Source of the DNA: Shigella phage ShigP1
Direction: 5' to 3' (one strand)
Length of the DNA stretch: 64,000 bases
Sequence record: PQ818763
The notes beneath the pieces were generated by a model. That model made no database searches and was not told the DNA's origin. It saw only the letters and a program-made list of their open reading frames with translations. How positions within the stretch are numbered: position 1 is the first letter of the stretch; each line of letters begins with the position of its first letter. Positions 14,939 through 20,106 of this stretch are shown piece by piece. The translations under genes and the position numbers were made by a program.

Positions 14939-15811
14939 TTACTTACTAGCCTTAATACAGTTGGCTAAACTAACGTGAACGGTATAAACAGCGTTATTAG
15001 CGTTATTGTAAACAGTGGTAGCAATCATCGACTCATTGATCGGGCCATAACTCACTAGATTGGTTACAGCTTTAACGTCTTCGTAACGTTGTACAGTGCC
15101 AAATGTAACCATATCCGAGTCACTATCGGTGCGCTTGAGAACTAGATCATTGTTAGGCTGATTGTCTAGTGTCTTAGACTGAAAGAGAACGCCATCATTA
15201 GTTACGTTGCTAAACTTCATTTTTAATACAATAGTACTTCCATCACTATCCGCACCGTTGCAAATCATCCAACCCTTATTGATGGAACTAGAGAAGACAC
15301 TAGCGGCATCAGTTGCAGGAGTAGAACTAGCGATAGCTTTATCAGAAAGAGATGTGACCAGTGCACTAACACCGATCGCTGCAACCAGTGCATAACTTGC
15401 CAGATTAACAGACTTCATAATCTTACTTGCAACAGTAGGCTTGATTGGCTGTTTCTTGTTTTTCTTATTCCATGCTTCAACCATGACAGACAAGCGGGAT
15501 AATTCAGCTTTCACATCGCGGCATGACTCAGGCCAATCCTTCTGATTCCAGCTATCTAAATTTGCTTGAATGTAGCAATTAATAGCGTCCTGCATATTGG
15601 TAAAACCGTTCTCTTTGAACGTGCTTTCATCTTCACACTGTAAAGCGTTCGCAGTAGAGTTAATGATCAAGCAAGCCAGCATTACAGAGTTTTTGAATCC
15701 TTTACGTGCACTTTCGTTTTCCATCCACGCATCAGGACTACCAACGGTTAAGCCTAAAGAGGAAAGGCTTTCGTTTGCTTTGTTCAAGTGGTTAATCGCT
15801 ACTTTAGACAT
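14939..15811 (-). CDS. hypothetical protein (290 aa), first gene of the leftward block
   Basis: ORF track; internal hydrophobic helix ASYALVAAIGVSALVTSL. Confidence 0.5.
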   Translation of the reverse strand: MSKVAINHLNKANESLSSLGLTVGSPDAWMENESARKGFKNSVMLACLIINSTANALQCEDESTFKENGFTNMQDAINCYIQANLDSWNQKDWPESCRDVKAELSRLSVMVEAWNKKNKKQPIKPTVASKIMKSVNLASYALVAAIGVSALVTSLSDKAIASSTPATDAASVFSSSINKGWMICNGADSDGSTIVLKMKFSNVTNDGVLFQSKTLDNQPNNDLVLKRTDSDSDMVTFGTVQRYEDVKAVTNLVSYGPINESMIATTVYNNANNAVYTVHVSLANCIKASK

Positions 15812-16404
15812 TTGATATTCCTTATGGTTGATGAAAACTACAAACTACAATCGCAACTATATAATAAAGGAAAAGGCTGTCAACCATTTATTTTCTAACT
15901 TTCCTATAACTCACTGAAAACTAAAGGGATTTAATTTACTAAACTTTCCATACTCAGAGAATCAGCTTACTTCTTATTGTTACTTTATAACACTACGGGT
16001 AACAGACCAACAGATCAGGACAAACGGGGATACAACAACCGCAGAACAGACCACGGGGAAACATAGGCAGATAGTGCGGTAGTAATATACCACTTAAATA
16101 ATTGTATAACTCAAACATCAAAGACGTTCGCTACGCTCACAAAGGCACGCTGAAAAAAGAAAAGAATAAAAGCAATTATTAAAAGAATTACAATCATCCA
16201 CTTAATTAATACATATATCATTATTGCACTCATAATCATTACTATTGAAACTATTTACATTCAAACTATGGGGGATGTGGGCTATTACTTATGGGTATTA
16301 TTAGCCTCTTATGGTAGTGCCTGTACTAGTTTATACAGTGCTAGCCTTTCTCTCACTCTTTAAAGGGGAACTAAATAAACGGGTAGCTAATGAATAGGAT
16401 GGTA

Positions 16405-16456
16405 TACACGGGGGAATAATTACGGGGAGTAGGCACGGGGAAAGGTGGAACGTGGG
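16405..16456 (+). repeat. G-rich direct repeats (ACGGGG x3, ACGTGGG x1) in the divergent intergenic region
   Basis: Copies at 16408, 16422, 16435, 16450, spaced 13-15 nt. Confidence 0.6.
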
Positions 16457-16594
16457 AATGGGCTTAAAGGCATTGCCAATAACCCTTTTTTTAAATGAGG
16501 ACTCCCCCTTTTTAGGAAACGCGCGGCGAGCGGCTAGCCCCATTCGGTCAAATCAGAATTTTAAACTCTTATATATAAGGTTGAAAGAGAACTT

Positions 16595-16759
16595 ATGTGG
16601 AAAATTAAGTTAATCATTAAGCAATTCAAATGTGATCATGAGTACTATCGGATACGCAAAGCTTACGGGGATGAAAGAGTTCACACCCTTTATAAGTCCA
16701 CTTGGAGATGTAGTAAATGTGGAAAGCTTAAACACAGCACATGGATGGATAGGCCTTAA
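16595..16759 (+). CDS. small zinc-ribbon-like protein (54 aa), first rightward gene
   Basis: Hand-translated (below the track length cut-off): MWKIKLIIKQFKCDHEYY...WRCSKCGKLKH...; frame checked from ATG 16595 to TAA 16757-16759. Confidence 0.35.
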   Translation: MWKIKLIIKQFKCDHEYYRIRKAYGDERVHTLYKSTWRCSKCGKLKHSTWMDRP

Positions 16760-16800
16760 CGTGACATGGCCTTTATGTGATAGTGCCTTAATGTGAAGTA
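16753..16800 (+). repeat. three tandem 16-bp repeats GCCTT(T/A)A(T/C)GTGA
   Basis: Copies at 16753, 16769, 16785; degenerate copies near 16818, 16934, 16961. Confidence 0.55.
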
Positions 16801-16993
16801 GTCATCAAAGATGACGTCCCCTTTATGTCTTAACTTTATCAGAGGGATGTATGACAGAAGATGAATACGGTAGCTTCTCTGAAGAAGACTACGAAAATGA
16901 ATACAGGTATTCTCACGGGTGTTAATGTGAGGTGGCCTTTACGGGTATGTCTTATGATGTGCCCTTTATACTCTTATTCAGAGGAGAAGAATT

Positions 16994-17248
16994 ATGAATT
17001 TAGTATTAGACTTTTTATCAGAGATGGTGCCTCGGTTCAGAACGGAGACATACGCTTTCGTGGTCAACAGTGACTCTGAAGAAGGGATGGAAGCTACTTG
17101 CTTAGGCCGTCTTGTTGATTTAGATGATGAAACAGATTTCGATATTACAATTGATGTAAGTAGTTTTGGTTGGCTCTTCTTCAGAGCATTCCGCACTTAC
17201 AGAAAAGAAACATACAAAGATTACAGCAAGGGAGATACAAATGAATAA
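16994..17248 (+). CDS. hypothetical acidic protein (84 aa)
   Basis: ORF track; GGAGAAG ribosome-binding site. Confidence 0.45.
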   Translation: MNLVLDFLSEMVPRFRTETYAFVVNSDSEEGMEATCLGRLVDLDDETDFDITIDVSSFGWLFFRAFRTYRKETYKDYSKGDTNE

Positions 17249-17873
17249 TTTAATCCAAGCGATGGACCTTAACGATTACAATTCACAGCTATGTCGCTCT
17301 GGTTGTAGCTTACAGCATTTAGAAACTATGGGAAATGTTTCAGGATTGGCTGTACAAGATTTATATAGTGGAAGTATTCTTAAACCAACTATTACGGAGA
17401 AGAAAGATATGATGAGTTTAGTAGAACAATACCGTGGACTTCAAGTCGGTACTATTGGTGATAAATATGAGAACTACTACAAAGATCGCTCAAAAGTACT
17501 TGAAGAAGTTGCACGGGCTAAGCCTTCTACTCTGGAAGTAGTTGAATACGAATCTACTAAACATGATCACCTCCCTGACTATGCTCGTGCAATGATTGAG
17601 ATGATTGAAGAAGCTGAATACGAAATGCTCCATGATTATATTACCTCCAAAGATGAATGGCATCGTGATGTTAGAATCGAAGAGGATGGTACAGAAACAA
17701 TTACGTGGATTCACAAGAGTGAGCTAGTAGACGACGCACTGCGAGACTACGAAAAATTTTTGGTCGACGGCTCTATTCTTTTAGAGGAAGAGAAGGGTGC
17801 AGAACTTCCGTGGGAAGGTGAGACGATTGCTCTAGGTAAGATGTTTAACCTGTCCGTTGGTGATTGTAAGTAA
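17241..17873 (+). CDS. hypothetical protein (210 aa)
   Basis: Track ORF 17166-17873 trimmed to ATG 17241, preceded by AAGGGAG and overlapping the upstream stop. Confidence 0.5.
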   Translation: MNNLIQAMDLNDYNSQLCRSGCSLQHLETMGNVSGLAVQDLYSGSILKPTITEKKDMMSLVEQYRGLQVGTIGDKYENYYKDRSKVLEEVARAKPSTLEVVEYESTKHDHLPDYARAMIEMIEEAEYEMLHDYITSKDEWHRDVRIEEDGTETITWIHKSELVDDALRDYEKFLVDGSILLEEEKGAELPWEGETIALGKMFNLSVGDCK

Positions 17874-17878
17874 TATTT

Positions 17879-17902
17879 GCCTCCATTGGGAGGCTTTTTG
17901 TG
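17879..17902 (+). terminator. rho-independent terminator
   Basis: GCCTCC-ATTG-GGAGGC followed by TTTTTGTG. Confidence 0.6.
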
Positions 17903-17929
17903 TTGTTGATAATGTAGAAGGAGTATAAA

Positions 17930-18403
17930 ATGTTTGGAGAAAACGGAGAACTCACGCCTGCACAGGTAGCTGAGATTACAGGAAGATTACCCGGAGTAAC
18001 GGAAGAACTCGAAAGCCGTGGTATGAACCCAAGCAATGGGAAGTTTCAAAAGGGAAATAAATTCGGACGACCCAGAGGTAGTAGAGGTAAACTGACACAA
18101 TTAATGTTGGACCGTGTTGCTGCAAGTCATTTGTCTCCTGATGAAGTGTTAATTCAAATTTACGAAGATCCTAATATTCCACCCGATCTTAGATTCAAGG
18201 CTGCATCAAAAGTTGCAGATCTGGTATATCCTAAGGCGGCCTCTGTTGAAGTTAAGATTGAGGAAGAGAATGTAATCAACGAAGAATCACTGAATGCACA
18301 AATCAAGGACTTCTTGACTGGAGCACTTGGTGTTGACGTTATGCCTCCAGAAGAAGATAACTCTGAGGACGCTGAAAAGGGGGAGGAAGCGGACGAGAGT
18401 TAA
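17930..18403 (+). CDS. putative terminase small subunit
   Basis: Immediately upstream of the large terminase; basic Gly-rich N-terminal segment KGNKFGRPRGSRGK typical of small-terminase DNA-binding regions; acidic C-terminus. Confidence 0.45.
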   Translation: MFGENGELTPAQVAEITGRLPGVTEELESRGMNPSNGKFQKGNKFGRPRGSRGKLTQLMLDRVAASHLSPDEVLIQIYEDPNIPPDLRFKAASKVADLVYPKAASVEVKIEEENVINEESLNAQIKDFLTGALGVDVMPPEEDNSEDAEKGEEADES

Positions 18404-18564: not shown

Positions 18565-20106
18565 ATGTCATTAGATAAACAAATTTATGAAGCTCTAACT
18601 GGTAACAACCTTAGTGTAGAGGAAAAGAAAGCACTATTGAATATGTTGAAAGAGCGTGACCAATGGAGGAAGTATAATAAGATTTTGTCTTTCAAGGCGT
18701 ATGACTTCCAAAAGAAATTTTATGCAGCAGGATTGAAGCATCGCTTTAGATTCTTGTGTGCAGCGAACCGTGTTGGTAAATCTTATAGCGAGGCATACGA
18801 GTTTGCTTGTCATGTCACAGGTCGCTACCCAACTTGGTGGACAGGGTATAAATTTAAAAGACCTATCTTAGCATGGGCAGTTGGTATTACAGGGGATTCC
18901 ACAAGGAAAGTATTGCAAAAGGAGTTGTTTGGTACACCTATCGGAAAGGATACAAATTTATTAGGGACAGGTGTCATTCCTCGTGATGCTATCGTCATTG
19001 ACACGATAGAACGAGATGGTAACAAACTTCAAATCGTACAAATCAAACATCAAAACGAAAGAGGAGAGTTTGACGGTTTAAGTACATTAGAATTCCGTTC
19101 AACCCAACAGGGTGAACACACATTGATGGGTGCAACAGTTGACTACATTTGGTTAGACGAAGAAGATCCATACGAGTCTATGGCTATATTCGCACAGTGC
19201 GTCACACGTACACTCACAACTAAAGGTCTAGTTACAATTACAGCTACACCAGAGAACGGTTTAACTGAACTGGTAGATAAATTTATGAAAGGTGAAGGGG
19301 ATGAGAACACAGGTTCTCTATATTTCCAGAACGCTTCTTGGTGGGATGCTCATGCAGACCTAGGTGGACACATCACTGACCAAGATATAAAAGATATGAC
19401 TGAAGGTATTCCAGCGTGGCAGTTAGAGATGCGTTCGAAAGGTATGCCATTGTTAGGAAGTGGTTTGATTTATGATGTATCGGATGACACAATTAAATGT
19501 GAACCATTCGAAATTCCTGATACGTGGAAACGTGTCTGTGCAATTGATATTGGTATTGATCACCCAACTGCTGCTGTTTGGACAGCTTACGATGCAAACA
19601 CGGATACTATCTATGTTTACGACTCATATAAAGAAGGTGGCTTTACTCCAGTGTATCATGCTCCAGCTATTAATGGTCGTGGTCAGTGGATTCCTGTCAT
19701 CCTACCGCATGATGCGGACAATATTGAGAAAGGTAGTGGTTCATCTGTTGCTCAATTCTATAAGAATGCAGGAGTTAACGTACAGAGTGAGACCTTCTAC
19801 AACAAAATTGGAATGGATGGTAAAAAGAACTTCTTTGTAGAACCCGGAATCACAGATATCCGAGAAAGAATGATGAGTGGACGCTTTAAAATCTTTAACA
19901 CAGCTGCTAACGCTAAGCTATTCGAAGAGAAAGCTAGATATCACCGTAAGGTTGGTAAGATTATTAAAGAACATGATGACTTAATGGATGCAATGCGCTA
20001 TTCAGCGTGCTCTGTTACACATCGTGGTCGCTCTAAACATGACGTTAGCTACGGAAGTGCTTCTCTGTATGAGGCAAACGTAAGCAGATGGAATCAGAGT
20101 TACTAA
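18565..20106 (+). CDS. terminase large subunit
   Basis: Walker A-like CAANRVGKS, Walker B-like DYIWLDEED, nuclease-domain acidic motifs (AIDIGIDHP, LPHDAD); 513 aa. Confidence 0.8.
   Translation: MSLDKQIYEALTGNNLSVEEKKALLNMLKERDQWRKYNKILSFKAYDFQKKFYAAGLKHRFRFLCAANRVGKSYSEAYEFACHVTGRYPTWWTGYKFKRPILAWAVGITGDSTRKVLQKELFGTPIGKDTNLLGTGVIPRDAIVIDTIERDGNKLQIVQIKHQNERGEFDGLSTLEFRSTQQGEHTLMGATVDYIWLDEEDPYESMAIFAQCVTRTLTTKGLVTITATPENGLTELVDKFMKGEGDENTGSLYFQNASWWDAHADLGGHITDQDIKDMTEGIPAWQLEMRSKGMPLLGSGLIYDVSDDTIKCEPFEIPDTWKRVCAIDIGIDHPTAAVWTAYDANTDTIYVYDSYKEGGFTPVYHAPAINGRGQWIPVILPHDADNIEKGSGSSVAQFYKNAGVNVQSETFYNKIGMDGKKNFFVEPGITDIRERMMSGRFKIFNTAANAKLFEEKARYHRKVGKIIKEHDDLMDAMRYSACSVTHRGRSKHDVSYGSASLYEANVSRWNQSY

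What the first reader, a model, noticed from the sequence alone, without database searches (positions are those of the whole stretch)
15812..16994. Divergent intergenic region with G-rich and 16-bp tandem repeats
The switch point between the leftward and rightward gene blocks holds three ACGGGG copies and one ACGTGGG copy spaced 13-15 nt (16408-16456), an upstream purine-rich tract, and downstream three tandem 16-bp units GCCTT(T/A)A(T/C)GTGA (16753-16800) with degenerate copies to about 16970. This is the expected place for early promoters and operators, and possibly for a genome terminus or packaging site.
Basis: seen in the sequence. Interest (0 to 1): 0.5.

Follow-up and report, generated by a model that had tools for sequence, protein, structure and literature searches.

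The report
Genome-end repeat region of a phiEco32-like phage
This stretch is where the two ends of a phiEco32-like (Kuravirus) coliphage genome meet: the G-rich repeats lie inside the already known 193-bp terminal repeat, so the region is known, and only the conserved short-motif arrays in it appear to be undescribed.

Summary
ACGGGG sits at 16408, 16422 and 16435, ACGTGGG at 16450. Three 16-bp GCCTTWAYGTGA units lie at 16753-16796, with looser copies to 16969. Both motifs are strongly clustered and all copies are on the + strand.

The window is a Kuravirus genome assembled through its ends. Window 16343-16535 is the 193-bp homolog (92.8% identical) of the phiEco32 direct terminal repeat (DTR). 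Phages Paul and 4E8 place the boundaries at the same points. So the G-rich boxes lie inside the DTR.

- **Second box cluster:** it lies about 300 bp to the left (15995-16058).
- **Conservation:** boxes are conserved in all relatives examined while spacers drift. One sublineage has ATGGGTA boxes in both clusters, which points to a shared sequence-specific reader.
- **Early promoter:** the sigma-70 promoter is separate, at 15883-15856 on the minus strand.
- **16-bp array:** the unit is TGA-N4-SCCTTWAY, with 4-7 copies of its SCCTTWAY core in every relative examined. It lies inside the putative left-end operon, and its last copies form a terminator-like hairpin.

The layout mirrors the CCTAAAG arrays at the T7 ends. 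Box function is inferred (end recognition or processing for packaging), not shown. The region is of a known kind; the motif arrays appear undescribed.

The parts
14939..15811 (-). First gene of the leftward early block (homolog of phiEco32 gene 128); function unknown
   Evidence: ORF list. It aligns to phi32_128. PHROG 36409 matches at E = 2e-196 with no functional annotation; no Pfam hit.
15856..15883 (-). Sigma-70 early promoter: -35 TTGACA at 15883-15878, 16-nt spacer, -10 TATAGT at 15861-15856
   Evidence: Matches 11 of 12 consensus positions. Same sequence as the SU10 'early promoter upstream of CDS125' and the promoter annotated in phage 4E8. Conserved in 13 of 14 relatives.
15995..16058 (+). 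Box cluster A, in the right-end unique DNA: ACGGGT at 15995, ACGGGG at 16024 and 16053, spaced 29 nt apart
   Evidence: Every relative whose boundaries the scan located (21 of 22) has 2-5 such boxes between -250 and -420 from the DTR start. In type-3 phages the boxes change to ATGGGTA(R)G in step with cluster B.
16075..16265 (.). A+T-rich non-coding block; its ends (16075-16124 and 16200-16249) are conserved. It contains the direct repeat CCACTTAAWTAAT at 16090 and 16198
   Evidence: Fraction identical to the window is 0.97-0.98 in the 25-nt windows at 16075, 16200 and 16225, as high as the flanking genes, but only about 0.80 at 16125-16199. Repeat family D10. AT skew. No conserved ORF.
16268..16342 (.). 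Hypervariable spacer directly left of the DTR boundary, with loose G-boxes (ATGGGGG, TGTGGGC, ATGGGT)
   Evidence: Fraction identical to the window falls to 0.68-0.78 (windows from 16275), with many indels. This marks the left DTR boundary sharply.
16343..16535 (+). Homolog of the 193-bp direct terminal repeat, present once because the assembly runs through the ends. Inferred cut points are 16342|16343 and 16535|16536
   Evidence: phiEco32's first 193 nt equal its last 193 nt exactly. The window segment is also 193 nt and 92.8% identical to it. The boundaries match the PhageTerm DTR of Paul and the annotated DTR of 4E8. Literature. Only one copy is present in the window.
16379..16440 (+). Box cluster B inside the DTR: ACGGGT at 16379, ACGGGG at 16408, 16422 and 16435 (DTR positions +36, +65, +79, +92)
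   Evidence: The same positions occur in all type-1 relatives. Box columns are 96% conserved against 84% for the rest of the left part of the DTR (permutation P = 0.006). The boxes persist in the 68%-identical 4E8 DTR.
16450..16456 (+). Fourth copy, ACGTGGG: not a conserved box
   Evidence: This stretch is variable and carries 1-nt indels in relatives.
16466..16516 (+). Most conserved DTR core (AAAGGCATTGCCAATAACCCTTTTTTTAAATGAGGACTCCCCCTTTTTAGG), with two CCCTTTTT(T)A motifs
   Evidence: TGAGGACT and CCCC are invariant in all 22 aligned genomes, across all three DTR types, and the flanking T-run is nearly invariant. Its right-hand part corresponds to the 'highly conserved region ~130-170' of PMC9965538. 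The CCCTTTTTTA repeat was noted for SU10.
16536..16594 (+). Left-end leader containing the near-invariant TCGGTCAAATCAGAATTTTAAAC (16544-16566) and TATATA; a putative weak sigma-70 promoter for gene 1
   Evidence: Near-invariant in the 22 aligned genomes; GTCAAAT and AATTTT are strictly invariant. [quoted passage not shown] My scan did not reach its threshold here.
16595..16759 (+). Gene 1: a 54-aa protein with C-x-H ... C-x-x-C, probably zinc-binding. Its stop codon lies in the first array unit
   Evidence: PHROG 7696, E = 6e-17. No Pfam hit and no significant PDB match. Only one homolog cluster found.
16746..16826 (+). Proximal part of the TGA-N4-SCCTTWAY array: units at 16746 (1 mismatch), 16762, 16778 and 16812. 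The hairpin GTCATC-AAA-GATGAC lies at 16801-16815
   Evidence: All 22 relatives that could be scanned, covering all three DTR types, have 4-7 copies of the SCCTTWAY core at 14-16 nt period (sequences of two further phages). Hairpin read from the sequence.
16928..16969 (+). Distal two array units (16928-16942, 16955-16969). Together they form a hairpin (16943-16949 paired with 16958-16964) followed by TTTATACTCTTATT
   Evidence: Scored as terminator-like. The consensus fold keeps the stem in two sequence versions, with U-A to A-U exchange at one pair.
16971..16986 (+). Small hairpin CUCUU/AGGAG that would cover the ribosome-binding site of the next gene (16994-17248)
   Evidence: Five pairs kept in all 8 sequences folded; no covariation because the sequence is nearly invariant.
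17879..17918 (+). Context only, outside the finding: an intrinsic terminator (17879-17894), then the late promoter element TAATGTAGA (17910-17918). It lies ahead of the putative small terminase (17930-18403) and large terminase (18565-20106)
   Evidence: Same element as the SU10 late promoter 'gttgataatgtagaagg'. The small-terminase assignment comes from PMC9965538. Large terminase.

Best explanation
What is shown (confidence about 0.9). The region is the concatemer junction of a phiEco32-like podophage (Kuravirus), that is, the place where the right and left ends of the linear virion DNA meet in a run-through assembly. From left to right it holds:
- the first early gene and its sigma-70 promoter (15856-15883, minus strand);
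- about 460 bp of right-end unique non-coding DNA, carrying box cluster A and an A+T-rich block with conserved ends;
- the 193-bp direct terminal repeat (16343-16535), carrying box cluster B and an invariant core;
- the left-end leader, small gene 1, the 16-bp array, further small genes, and then the terminase genes.

What is inferred for the G-rich boxes (about 0.4). The ACGGG(G/T) boxes are binding sites for one phage-specified, sequence-specific protein that acts on genome ends. The most likely candidates are the terminase or a partner protein. It would bind both clusters on the concatemer and position or license the two cuts at the shared context sCT|RGCC, 193 bp apart. Polymerase fill-in, as proposed for T7, would then give each daughter genome a full repeat.

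What is inferred for the second array (about 0.3-0.35 for each of two roles). The TGA-N4-SCCTTWAY array is a separate element. It lies on the sense strand of the putative left-end operon, between gene 1 and the next gene. One role is a row of protein-binding sites next to the end, comparable to lambda cosB. The other is a transcript-level attenuator. For the last two units only, the hairpin plus U-tract and the hairpin over the ribosome-binding site favour the second role.
For: Identity of the region:
- The window matches about 90 Kuravirus genomes.
- phiEco32 has an exact 193-bp DTR. The window homolog has the same length and is 92.8% identical.
- Independent end calls in Paul (PhageTerm) and 4E8 give the same boundaries.
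- SU10 reads and YF01 nanopore reads also give 193 bp.

Boundaries:
- In 24 genomes the left boundary reads ...gcT|aGCCTtTC and the right boundary reads AGCGnCT|AGcCcCAcTCGG. The two share sCT|RGCC.
- Hypervariable DNA abuts the left boundary.

Boxes as functional sites:
- They are strongly clustered and on one strand only.
- They keep fixed DTR positions (+36, +65, +79, +92) in all type-1 genomes, and a second cluster lies at -250 to -420 in all.
- Box columns are more conserved than spacers (P = 0.006).
- They are retained in DTRs of only 68% identity.
- They change together to A(T/C)GGGTA(R)G in both clusters in Bas86 and MLP3, and in the DTR of ECBP2.

Architecture parallel:
- T7 has 11 CCTAAAG copies, all on one strand, in its first 340 bp. 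Three are inside its terminal repeat, many are 13 bp apart, and related boxes lie before the right repeat.

Array:
- It is specific to this locus in the 64 kb.
- 4-7 copies occur in every relative examined.
- The hairpin shows a compensatory change and scores as terminator-like.
Against: - No reads or virion DNA for this phage are available, so the ends are inferred by homology only.
- No binding protein is identified.
- The putative small terminase is at least 90% identical across the three box types. Substitutions specific to the type-3 pair (N33E, N36T, M138L in TerS; 4 in TerL) are no more numerous than for control pairs. Terminase co-variation is therefore not demonstrated.
- The invariant DTR core, rather than the variable boxes, fits an almost invariant small terminase better.
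- Box spacings (13-14 and 27-29 bp) are not in helical phase.
- As far as I know the function of the T7 arrays has never been established, so the analogy gives architecture, not mechanism.
- The array region is a mosaic with many indels, which sits uneasily with an essential packaging signal.
- The hairpin covariation rests on only two sequence versions.
Confidence: 0.6

Rival explanations
1. Replication origin. The two ACGGG box clusters would be iterons for a phage initiator. They flank the roughly 290-bp stretch between them, which includes the A+T-rich block and would serve as the unwinding element.
For: - Two same-sense clusters bracket an A+T-rich non-coding stretch whose ends are strongly conserved.
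- The concerted change of both clusters implies one specific reader.
- The cumulative GC skew of the scanned stretch reaches its minimum at about 16100-16300.
Against: - One cluster lies inside the terminal repeat, so it would be duplicated at both genome ends.
- No initiator gene is adjacent.
- The skew minimum is explained by the divergent transcription and the genome ends.
- No DnaA-box-like match was seen on reading the region.
- T7 shows the same box layout at its ends. Its primary origin lies elsewhere in the genome (my own knowledge, not checked here).
Confidence: 0.15
2. Transcription control. The repeats would be promoters or operators for early genes. For example, the small zinc-binding gene 1 protein might bind the 16-bp array just downstream of its own gene.
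For: - A real early promoter lies in the region.
- The array lies inside the putative early left-end operon and begins at the stop codon of a probable zinc-binding protein.
- Its bipartite, asymmetric 15-nt unit looks like a protein-binding site.
Against: - No sigma-70-like hexamer pair falls on either repeat.
- There is no match to the phage sigma consensus tAATGTAtA in the array.
- The G-rich boxes lie 110-580 bp from the mapped promoter, and half of them are inside the terminal repeat.
- The gene 1 protein has no detectable DNA-binding family.
Confidence: 0.12
3. DNA structure rather than protein code. The G-runs would form a G-quadruplex on the displaced or single-stranded + strand of the terminal repeat, for example during repeat duplication or at the ends.
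For: - Positions 16410-16459 have the highest G4Hunter score of the whole 64 kb in 50-nt windows (1.42). In 25-nt windows, 16424-16448 ties for the highest absolute score (1.72).
- Runs of at least three G survive in all three box types, while the flanking letters change.
Against: - Loops of 9-11 nt are long for a stable quadruplex.
- Cluster A boxes are 29 nt apart, too far apart for one.
- The concerted change of non-G positions (C to T, G to TA) is what a protein reader predicts, not a quadruplex.
- Ordinary single-strand folding of the DTR is no better than shuffled sequence.
Confidence: 0.07
4. Neutral repeats or protein-coding sequence. The boxes would be slippage products without function, or part of the ORFs that some depositors annotate across this region.
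For: - EK5 and Paul records annotate CDSs across the DTR.
- Copy number and spacing of array units vary among relatives, with indels in and next to the array, as unequal recombination would give.
Against: - 1-nt indels and 12-56-nt length differences break every reading frame across the DTR among relatives.
- Window ORFs here are short and not conserved.
- Boxes are better conserved than their spacers and keep fixed positions.
- Both motifs are retained in lineages whose surrounding sequence has diverged to 68% identity.
Confidence: 0.04

Closest known systems
Direct terminal repeat (about 193 bp) of phiEco32 and other Kuravirus phages (phiEco32, SU10, Paul, YF01)
   Same: - Same sequence family: 92.8% identical to phiEco32 over 193 nt.
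- Same length and same boundaries.
- Same place between the first early gene and gene 1 and the terminase genes.
- Same CCCTTTTT(T)A repeat and conserved core described for SU10 and YF01.
   Different: Nothing essential differs; this is another member. Small differences are 7 T instead of 6 in the first T-run and a divergent stretch at 16450-16475. The ACGGG box clusters, the shared cut-site context and the three box types are not mentioned in the papers I could read.
Short-repeat arrays at the ends of phage T7 DNA (CCTAAAG family, in and beside the 160-bp terminal repeat)
   Same: - Short boxes all on one strand.
- Some lie inside the terminal repeat and more lie in unique DNA beside it, on both sides of the concatemer junction.
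- 13-bp spacing is common.
- They lie between the genome end and the first host-polymerase promoters.
   Different: - No sequence similarity (CCTAAAG versus ACGGGG).
- T7 packaging is coupled to its own RNA polymerase pausing at the junction (PMC3276506). To my knowledge Kuraviruses have no phage RNA polymerase; the papers read describe only a phage sigma factor working with host RNA polymerase.
- In T7 the boxes abut the repeat, whereas here cluster A is about 290 bp away.
- The motif on the left-end side is a different one.
Lambda cosB (several 16-bp small-terminase sites beside the cut site) and P1 pac (hexamer repeats flanking the cut). Comparison from my own knowledge.
   Same: Several short same-sense sites lie within a few hundred bp of the terminase cut, between the cut and the terminase genes.
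   Different: - Ends here are blunt with a 193-bp repeat, not cohesive or headful.
- No binding data exist.
- No exact IHF consensus lies in the region.
- Membership is not claimed.
phiEco32 early sigma-70 promoter upstream of gene 128, and the gp36-dependent late promoters (tAATGTAtA)
   Same: - The early promoter is present and nearly identical to that listed for SU10.
- The late element TAATGTAGA lies ahead of the small terminase gene, as in SU10.
   Different: Neither coincides with the repeats of the finding. The late promoter lies outside the given coordinates.

Membership tests
Kuravirus (phiEco32-type) direct terminal repeat | Full-length sequence homology to a DTR whose ends were determined experimentally | tested here: met
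   193 nt against 193 nt, 92.8% identical to phiEco32. Also 87.6% to Paul and 67.9% to 4E8. phiEco32 ends were mapped by restriction, primer walking and subcloning, according to PMC9965538.
Kuravirus (phiEco32-type) direct terminal repeat | Same genomic position: after the first early gene and its promoter, before gene 1 and the terminase genes | tested here: met
   The gene order in the window equals the two ends of phiEco32 joined together.
Kuravirus (phiEco32-type) direct terminal repeat | Conserved boundary sequences at both ends of the repeat | tested here: met
   Left boundary GCT|AGCCTTTC and right boundary GCGGCT|AGCCCC in the window. The consensus is shared by 24 genomes.
Kuravirus (phiEco32-type) direct terminal repeat | Virion DNA of this phage physically ends at these points and carries the repeat at both ends | not testable with these tools
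   No reads or virion DNA are available. The window holds a single collapsed copy.
T7-type terminal short-repeat arrays | Same-strand short boxes inside the terminal repeat and in the adjoining unique DNA | tested here: met
   Window. T7.
T7-type terminal short-repeat arrays | Sequence relatedness of the boxes or of the repeat to T7 | tested here: not met
   ACGGGG against CCTAAAG, with no similarity. This is an analogy only, not membership.
Sigma-70 early promoter of phiEco32-like phages | -35/-10 hexamers with 16-18 nt spacing, homologous to the promoter ahead of the first early gene | tested here: met
   Matches 11 of 12 positions at 15883-15856 on the minus strand. It matches the SU10 table and the 4E8 annotation. 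Activity in this phage was not tested.
gp36-dependent middle/late promoter (tAATGTAtA) | Match of the 16-bp units to the single consensus element | tested here: not met
   No match with at most 1 mismatch lies in 16745-16970. The units read TAACGTGAC, TTATGTGAT and TAATGTGAA.
Small-terminase recognition array (cosB- or pac-like) | Specific binding by the terminase small subunit | not testable with these tools
   Only position is suggestive. The co-variation test of TerS and TerL against box type was inconclusive.
Intrinsic terminator (for the distal array units) | G+C-containing stem-loop followed by a U-rich tract, conserved in relatives | tested here: inconclusive
   A 7-9 bp stem with wobble pairs, followed by TTTATACTCTT. 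One pair shows an exchange on both sides across two sequence versions. The U-tract is weak.
Replication-origin iterons | Iterons next to an unwinding element and bound by an initiator | not testable with these tools
   The layout is compatible, but no initiator or initiation data exist.
Described RNA families (Rfam) | Covariance-model match | tested here: not met
   No match at E up to 1 in 15500-17500.

The most novel reading that the evidence does not exclude
The boxes may be a co-evolving end-recognition code. Kuraviruses fall into at least three terminal-repeat types:
- 193 bp with ACGGGG boxes;
- 205-206 bp with ACGGGG boxes plus an extra box;
- 249 bp with ATGGGTA(R)G boxes.

The box sequence changes together in the repeat and in the distant right-end cluster. 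If one phage protein reads both clusters to set the two cuts, box type would define packaging-specificity groups among otherwise similar phages. The two type-3-specific changes N33E and N36T in the putative small terminase are a weak lead to such a protein. This would also offer a tractable model for how short terminal repeats are measured and duplicated without a phage RNA polymerase.
Probability: 0.25. Interest if true: 0.5.

Novelty: new member of a known kind. Interest (0 to 1): 0.3.

Why it matters
- **Annotation:** the genome should be opened at 16343 and given a 193-bp repeat at both ends. ORFs called across 16268-16594 should be dropped.
- **Biology:** how short exact terminal repeats are recognised, cut and duplicated is, as far as I know, poorly understood even for T7. 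A second, unrelated phage group with the same box architecture and natural box variants gives a comparative handle on it.
- **Phage engineering:** Kuraviruses are candidates for therapy. The minimal junction (about 15990-16600, possibly to 16970) is the piece that must be kept intact. It is also the piece most likely to be needed for packaging a phagemid.

Tried and rejected
- **Rfam scan** of 15500-17500 gave nothing.
- **Single-strand folding** of the DTR on either strand was no better than shuffles (z = +1.2 and +0.5). RNA folding of the whole array was only marginally better than shuffles (z = -1.5).
- **Phage sigma consensus** tAATGTAtA has no match in the array.
- **IHF consensus:** no exact match lies in the region. 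AATCAGAATTTTA at 16551 is one mismatch off by my reading, which is too weak to use.
- **GCTAGCC as a rare cut-site word:** it is not rarer than chance in the window, so the word alone cannot specify the cuts.
- **Coding explanation:** rejected because frames are broken among relatives.
- **Terminase co-variation:** substitutions specific to type-3 phages are no more frequent than in control pairs. ECBP2 and KBNP1711 are only about 84% identical in DNA, so a two-genome contrast has no power.
- **Gene 1 protein and putative small terminase:** no Pfam family and no significant PDB sequence match. The homolog search gave one cluster only.
- **Distant relatives:** terminase searches in IMG/VR returned only close Kuraviruses or unrelated environmental contigs. 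The phage 7-11 record is not opened at its ends, and its non-coding region is not alignable.
- **Nick sites of LUZ24-like phages** (TACT/RTGMC) share only RTGAC with the array. They are dispersed genome-wide, unlike this array, so this was rejected.
- **Primary phiEco32 papers** (PMC2587145, PMC3275717) were not held.
- **Full-text search** for the motif strings found no relevant paper.
Full report

Yes. ACGGGG lies at 16408, 16422 and 16435, and ACGTGGG at 16450. Of the 13 ACGGGG in the 64-kb window (both strands), six lie between 16024 and 16670, all on the + strand. Widening the pattern to ACGGGK adds 15995, 16379, 16915 and 16941. For a pre-chosen interval, five copies in 417 nt has Poisson P of about 1e-9.

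The 16-bp units GCCTTAACGTGA, GCCTTTATGTGA and GCCTTAATGTGA start at 16753, 16769 and 16785. Tandem Repeats Finder gives period 16 and 2.8 copies. Seven of 19 SCCTTWAY matches in the window lie in 16686-16969. All five exact matches to the fuller unit TGA-N4-SCCTTWAY lie in 16762-16969, on the + strand. The A-rich tract and the divergent gene blocks are also as described.

**2. What the region is**

The stretch matches about 90 Escherichia and Shigella phages of the genus Kuravirus (phiEco32-like podophages) at 80-95% identity.

- In the phiEco32 record the match to the left part of my query runs to the very last base.
- The first 193 nt of that record equal its last 193 nt exactly.
- The window counterpart is 16343-16535. 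It is again 193 nt and 92.8% identical.
- Phage Paul carries a 193-bp repeat predicted from read starts, and phage 4E8 an annotated 206-bp repeat. Both align to the same two boundaries.
- The literature gives 193 bp for phiEco32 (restriction mapping, primer walking, subcloning), for SU10 (sharp read drop-offs, blunt ends) and for YF01 (full-length nanopore reads). It also reports 192-193-bp repeats found by similarity in 30 phages.

The window has only one copy. It is therefore an assembly that runs through the ends, and 15812-16994 is the concatemer junction.

**3. Anatomy, left to right**

- **(a) First early gene.** 14939-15811 on the minus strand, homolog of phiEco32 gene 128.
- **(b) Early promoter.** A near-consensus sigma-70 promoter, TTGACA-16-TATAGT, at 15883-15856 on the minus strand. 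It is the same sequence that the SU10 authors list as the early promoter upstream of their last gene, and that the 4E8 record annotates. [quoted passage not shown]
- **(c) Box cluster A.** ACGGGT, ACGGGG and ACGGGG at 15995, 16024 and 16053, spaced 29 nt apart.
- **(d) A+T-rich block.** 16075-16265, with no conserved ORF. Its ends (16075-16124 and 16200-16249) are as conserved as the neighbouring genes; the middle (16125-16199) is less so.
- **(e) Hypervariable pocket.** About 70 bp ending exactly at the repeat boundary.
- **(f) The terminal repeat.** It holds box cluster B at repeat positions +36, +65, +79 and +92. A variable stretch follows, which contains the fourth copy, ACGTGGG. Then comes the most conserved core, 16466-16516, within which TGAGGACT and CCCC are invariant in all 22 aligned genomes.
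- **(g) Left-end leader.** It carries the near-invariant TCGGTCAAATCAGAATTTTAAAC and a TATATA element. The SU10 authors list it as a possible sigma-70 promoter.
- **(h) Gene 1.** 16595-16759, a 54-aa protein with a C-x-H ... C-x-x-C pattern.
- **(i) The TGA-N4-SCCTTWAY array.**
- **(j) The next conserved gene**, at 16994.

Further right lie a terminator, the late promoter element TAATGTAGA (17910), the putative small terminase and the large terminase.

**4. The two cut sites look alike**

I took the boundaries from the phages with determined ends and transferred them by alignment to 24 genomes. The left junction reads ...gcT|aGCCTtTC and the right junction reads AGCGnCT|AGcCcCAcTCGG. Both cuts therefore fall in sCT|RGCC. 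In the window the right site is the 8-bp palindrome GGCT|AGCC, cut at its centre. This agrees with the blunt ends reported for SU10. The word itself is not rare in the genome, so other elements must give the specificity.

**5. Evidence that the G-rich boxes are functional sites**

- **(i) Fixed positions.** In every type-1 relative the four boxes in the repeat sit at the same positions. In every relative whose boundaries the scan located (21 of 22) there is a second cluster of 2-5 boxes 250-420 bp to the left of the repeat.
- **(ii) Better conserved than spacers.** Box columns are 96% conserved, against 84% for the rest of the left part of the repeat (permutation P = 0.006).
- **(iii) Retained at low identity.** In 4E8, EP335 and KBNP1711 the repeat is only about 68% identical and 205-206 bp long. 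The boxes persist and a fifth is added.
- **(iv) Concerted change.** In Bas86 and MLP3 the repeat is 249 bp and the boxes read A(T/C)GGGTA(R)G in both the repeat and the distant cluster. ECBP2 shows the same boxes in its repeat.

A concerted change in two separate clusters is what one expects if a single sequence-specific protein reads both. It is not expected from a pure DNA-structure element or from neutral slippage. The repeat does not fold better than shuffled sequence as single-stranded DNA, and no reading frame is preserved across it.

**6. Who reads the boxes?**

This remains unresolved.

- The putative small terminase is at least 90% identical across the three box types.
- Two type-3 phages share N33E and N36T, next to a basic stretch. 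However, the number of pair-specific substitutions (3 in the small subunit, 4 in the large) is no greater than for control pairs.
- The nearly invariant small terminase fits better with the invariant core of the repeat and the invariant leader.
- In T3 and T7 the packaging specificity maps to the large subunit and to DNA within 5% of the ends (PMC3276506). The large subunit therefore remains a candidate.

I hold the end-processing or packaging reading at about 0.4, a replication-origin reading at 0.15 and a G-quadruplex reading at 0.07. For the last, the cluster has the top G4Hunter score of the window in 50-nt windows (1.42).

**7. The 16-bp array**

The unit is bipartite and asymmetric: (Y/R)RTGA, four variable bases, then SCCTTWAY. 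All 22 relatives that could be scanned, covering all three repeat types, have 4-7 copies of the SCCTTWAY core. There are three to five in tandem at 14-16 nt period, starting at the stop codon of gene 1. Where that part of the region is retained, two more lie just ahead of the next conserved gene. The region between them is a mosaic of indels and small inserted ORFs.

The last two units form a hairpin (16943-16949 with 16958-16964) followed by TTTATACTCTT. The stem exists in two sequence versions with an exchange on both sides at one pair. A second small hairpin, CUCUU/AGGAG, would cover the ribosome-binding site at 16982-16986.

Because all units are on the sense strand of the putative early left-end operon, a transcript-level role is as likely as a DNA-binding role. 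The transcript-level role would be attenuation or translational control of the downstream genes. The DNA-binding role would be a cosB-like terminase array, or operators for the gene 1 protein. The units do not match the phage sigma-factor promoter consensus.

**8. Comparison with what is known**

The terminal repeat, its length, its conserved core, its internal CCCTTTTTTA repeat and the early promoter are already described for this phage group.

The closest analogue for the boxes is phage T7. In its first 340 bp CCTAAAG occurs 11 times, all on one strand. Three copies are inside the 160-bp terminal repeat and eight are just beyond it, often 13 bp apart. Related CCTAWRG boxes precede the right-hand repeat. 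The architecture is the same but the sequences are unrelated, so this is analogy and not membership. To my knowledge the role of the T7 arrays has not been settled (not checked here).

I found no description of the ACGGG clusters, of the shared cut-site context, of the three box types, or of the TGA-N4-SCCTTWAY array in the papers I could read or by full-text search for the motif strings.

**9. Verdict**

The region is a further example of a known structure, the Kuravirus genome-end junction with its 193-bp direct terminal repeat and early promoter. What may be new is at the level of detail: two conserved, strand-specific motif arrays. One of them co-varies between two separate clusters across sublineages. 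Interest is modest (0.3). Its main practical value is correct genome-end annotation and a comparative handle on how short terminal repeats are recognised.

Noticed in passing
window 17879-17918: A strong intrinsic terminator (GCCTCCATTGGGAGGC followed by a T-run) is followed 16 nt later by TAATGTAGA. This is the homolog of the phage-sigma-dependent late promoter ahead of the putative small terminase gene. It marks the early-to-late boundary on the left arm.
   Followed up: partly
window 16595-16759: Gene 1 encodes a 54-aa protein with C13-x-H15 ... C39-x-x-C42, probably a zinc ribbon. It is conserved in all relatives but has two different N-terminal versions. No family assignment was found.
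   Followed up: partly
L011 (SGF2), L013 (rybdy3), L014 (PE006), L010 (TH38), L028, L029, at the position of window 16760: Several relatives carry an extra 26-aa, very hydrophobic mini-ORF (MEIIFWLVIVFCLFICFSIARCIKYD). It is inserted right after gene 1 and starts in a TAATG overlap with the gene 1 stop codon. The window lacks it.
   Followed up: no
window 16483-16493: The first T-run of the terminal repeat has 7 T here, whereas all 21 aligned relatives have 6. The SU10 authors reported read-level length variation in the T-runs of this repeat. This may be real slippage or a homopolymer sequencing error.
   Followed up: no
L003 (EK5) 888-1211 and L018 (Paul) 104-415: Public records annotate protein-coding genes running across the terminal repeat. 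Frame-breaking indels among relatives indicate that these calls are spurious.
   Followed up: partly
L005 (EC.W2-6), L016 (4E8), L022, L024, after the position of window 16566: Some relatives have a 42-bp insertion that repeats ATTTTAAAC and contains a palindrome (ACAGAT...ATCTGT). It sits between the invariant leader and the TATATA element. The 4E8 depositors place their left-end promoter in it.
   Followed up: no
L049 (phage 7-11) 880-1100: The distantly related phage 7-11 has a non-coding region of more than 2 kb at the matching place. It carries its own same-strand G-rich boxes (TGTATGGATA twice, CGTGTGGATA, CGTGTGGTAA, and a run of 9 G). It is not alignable to the window.
   Followed up: no
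window 14939-15811 compared with L012, L014, L021, L022, L024, L015: The first early gene is 873 nt here, but several relatives have a 492-nt gene in its place that matches only its C-terminal part (PHROG 21410). The protein therefore looks like a two-module fusion.
   Followed up: no
window 16851-16925: A 24-aa, very acidic mini-ORF (MTEDEYGSFSEEDYENEYRYSHGC) with a good ribosome-binding site lies between the two parts of the array. phiEco32 has a 66-nt longer version, and other relatives lack it.
   Followed up: no
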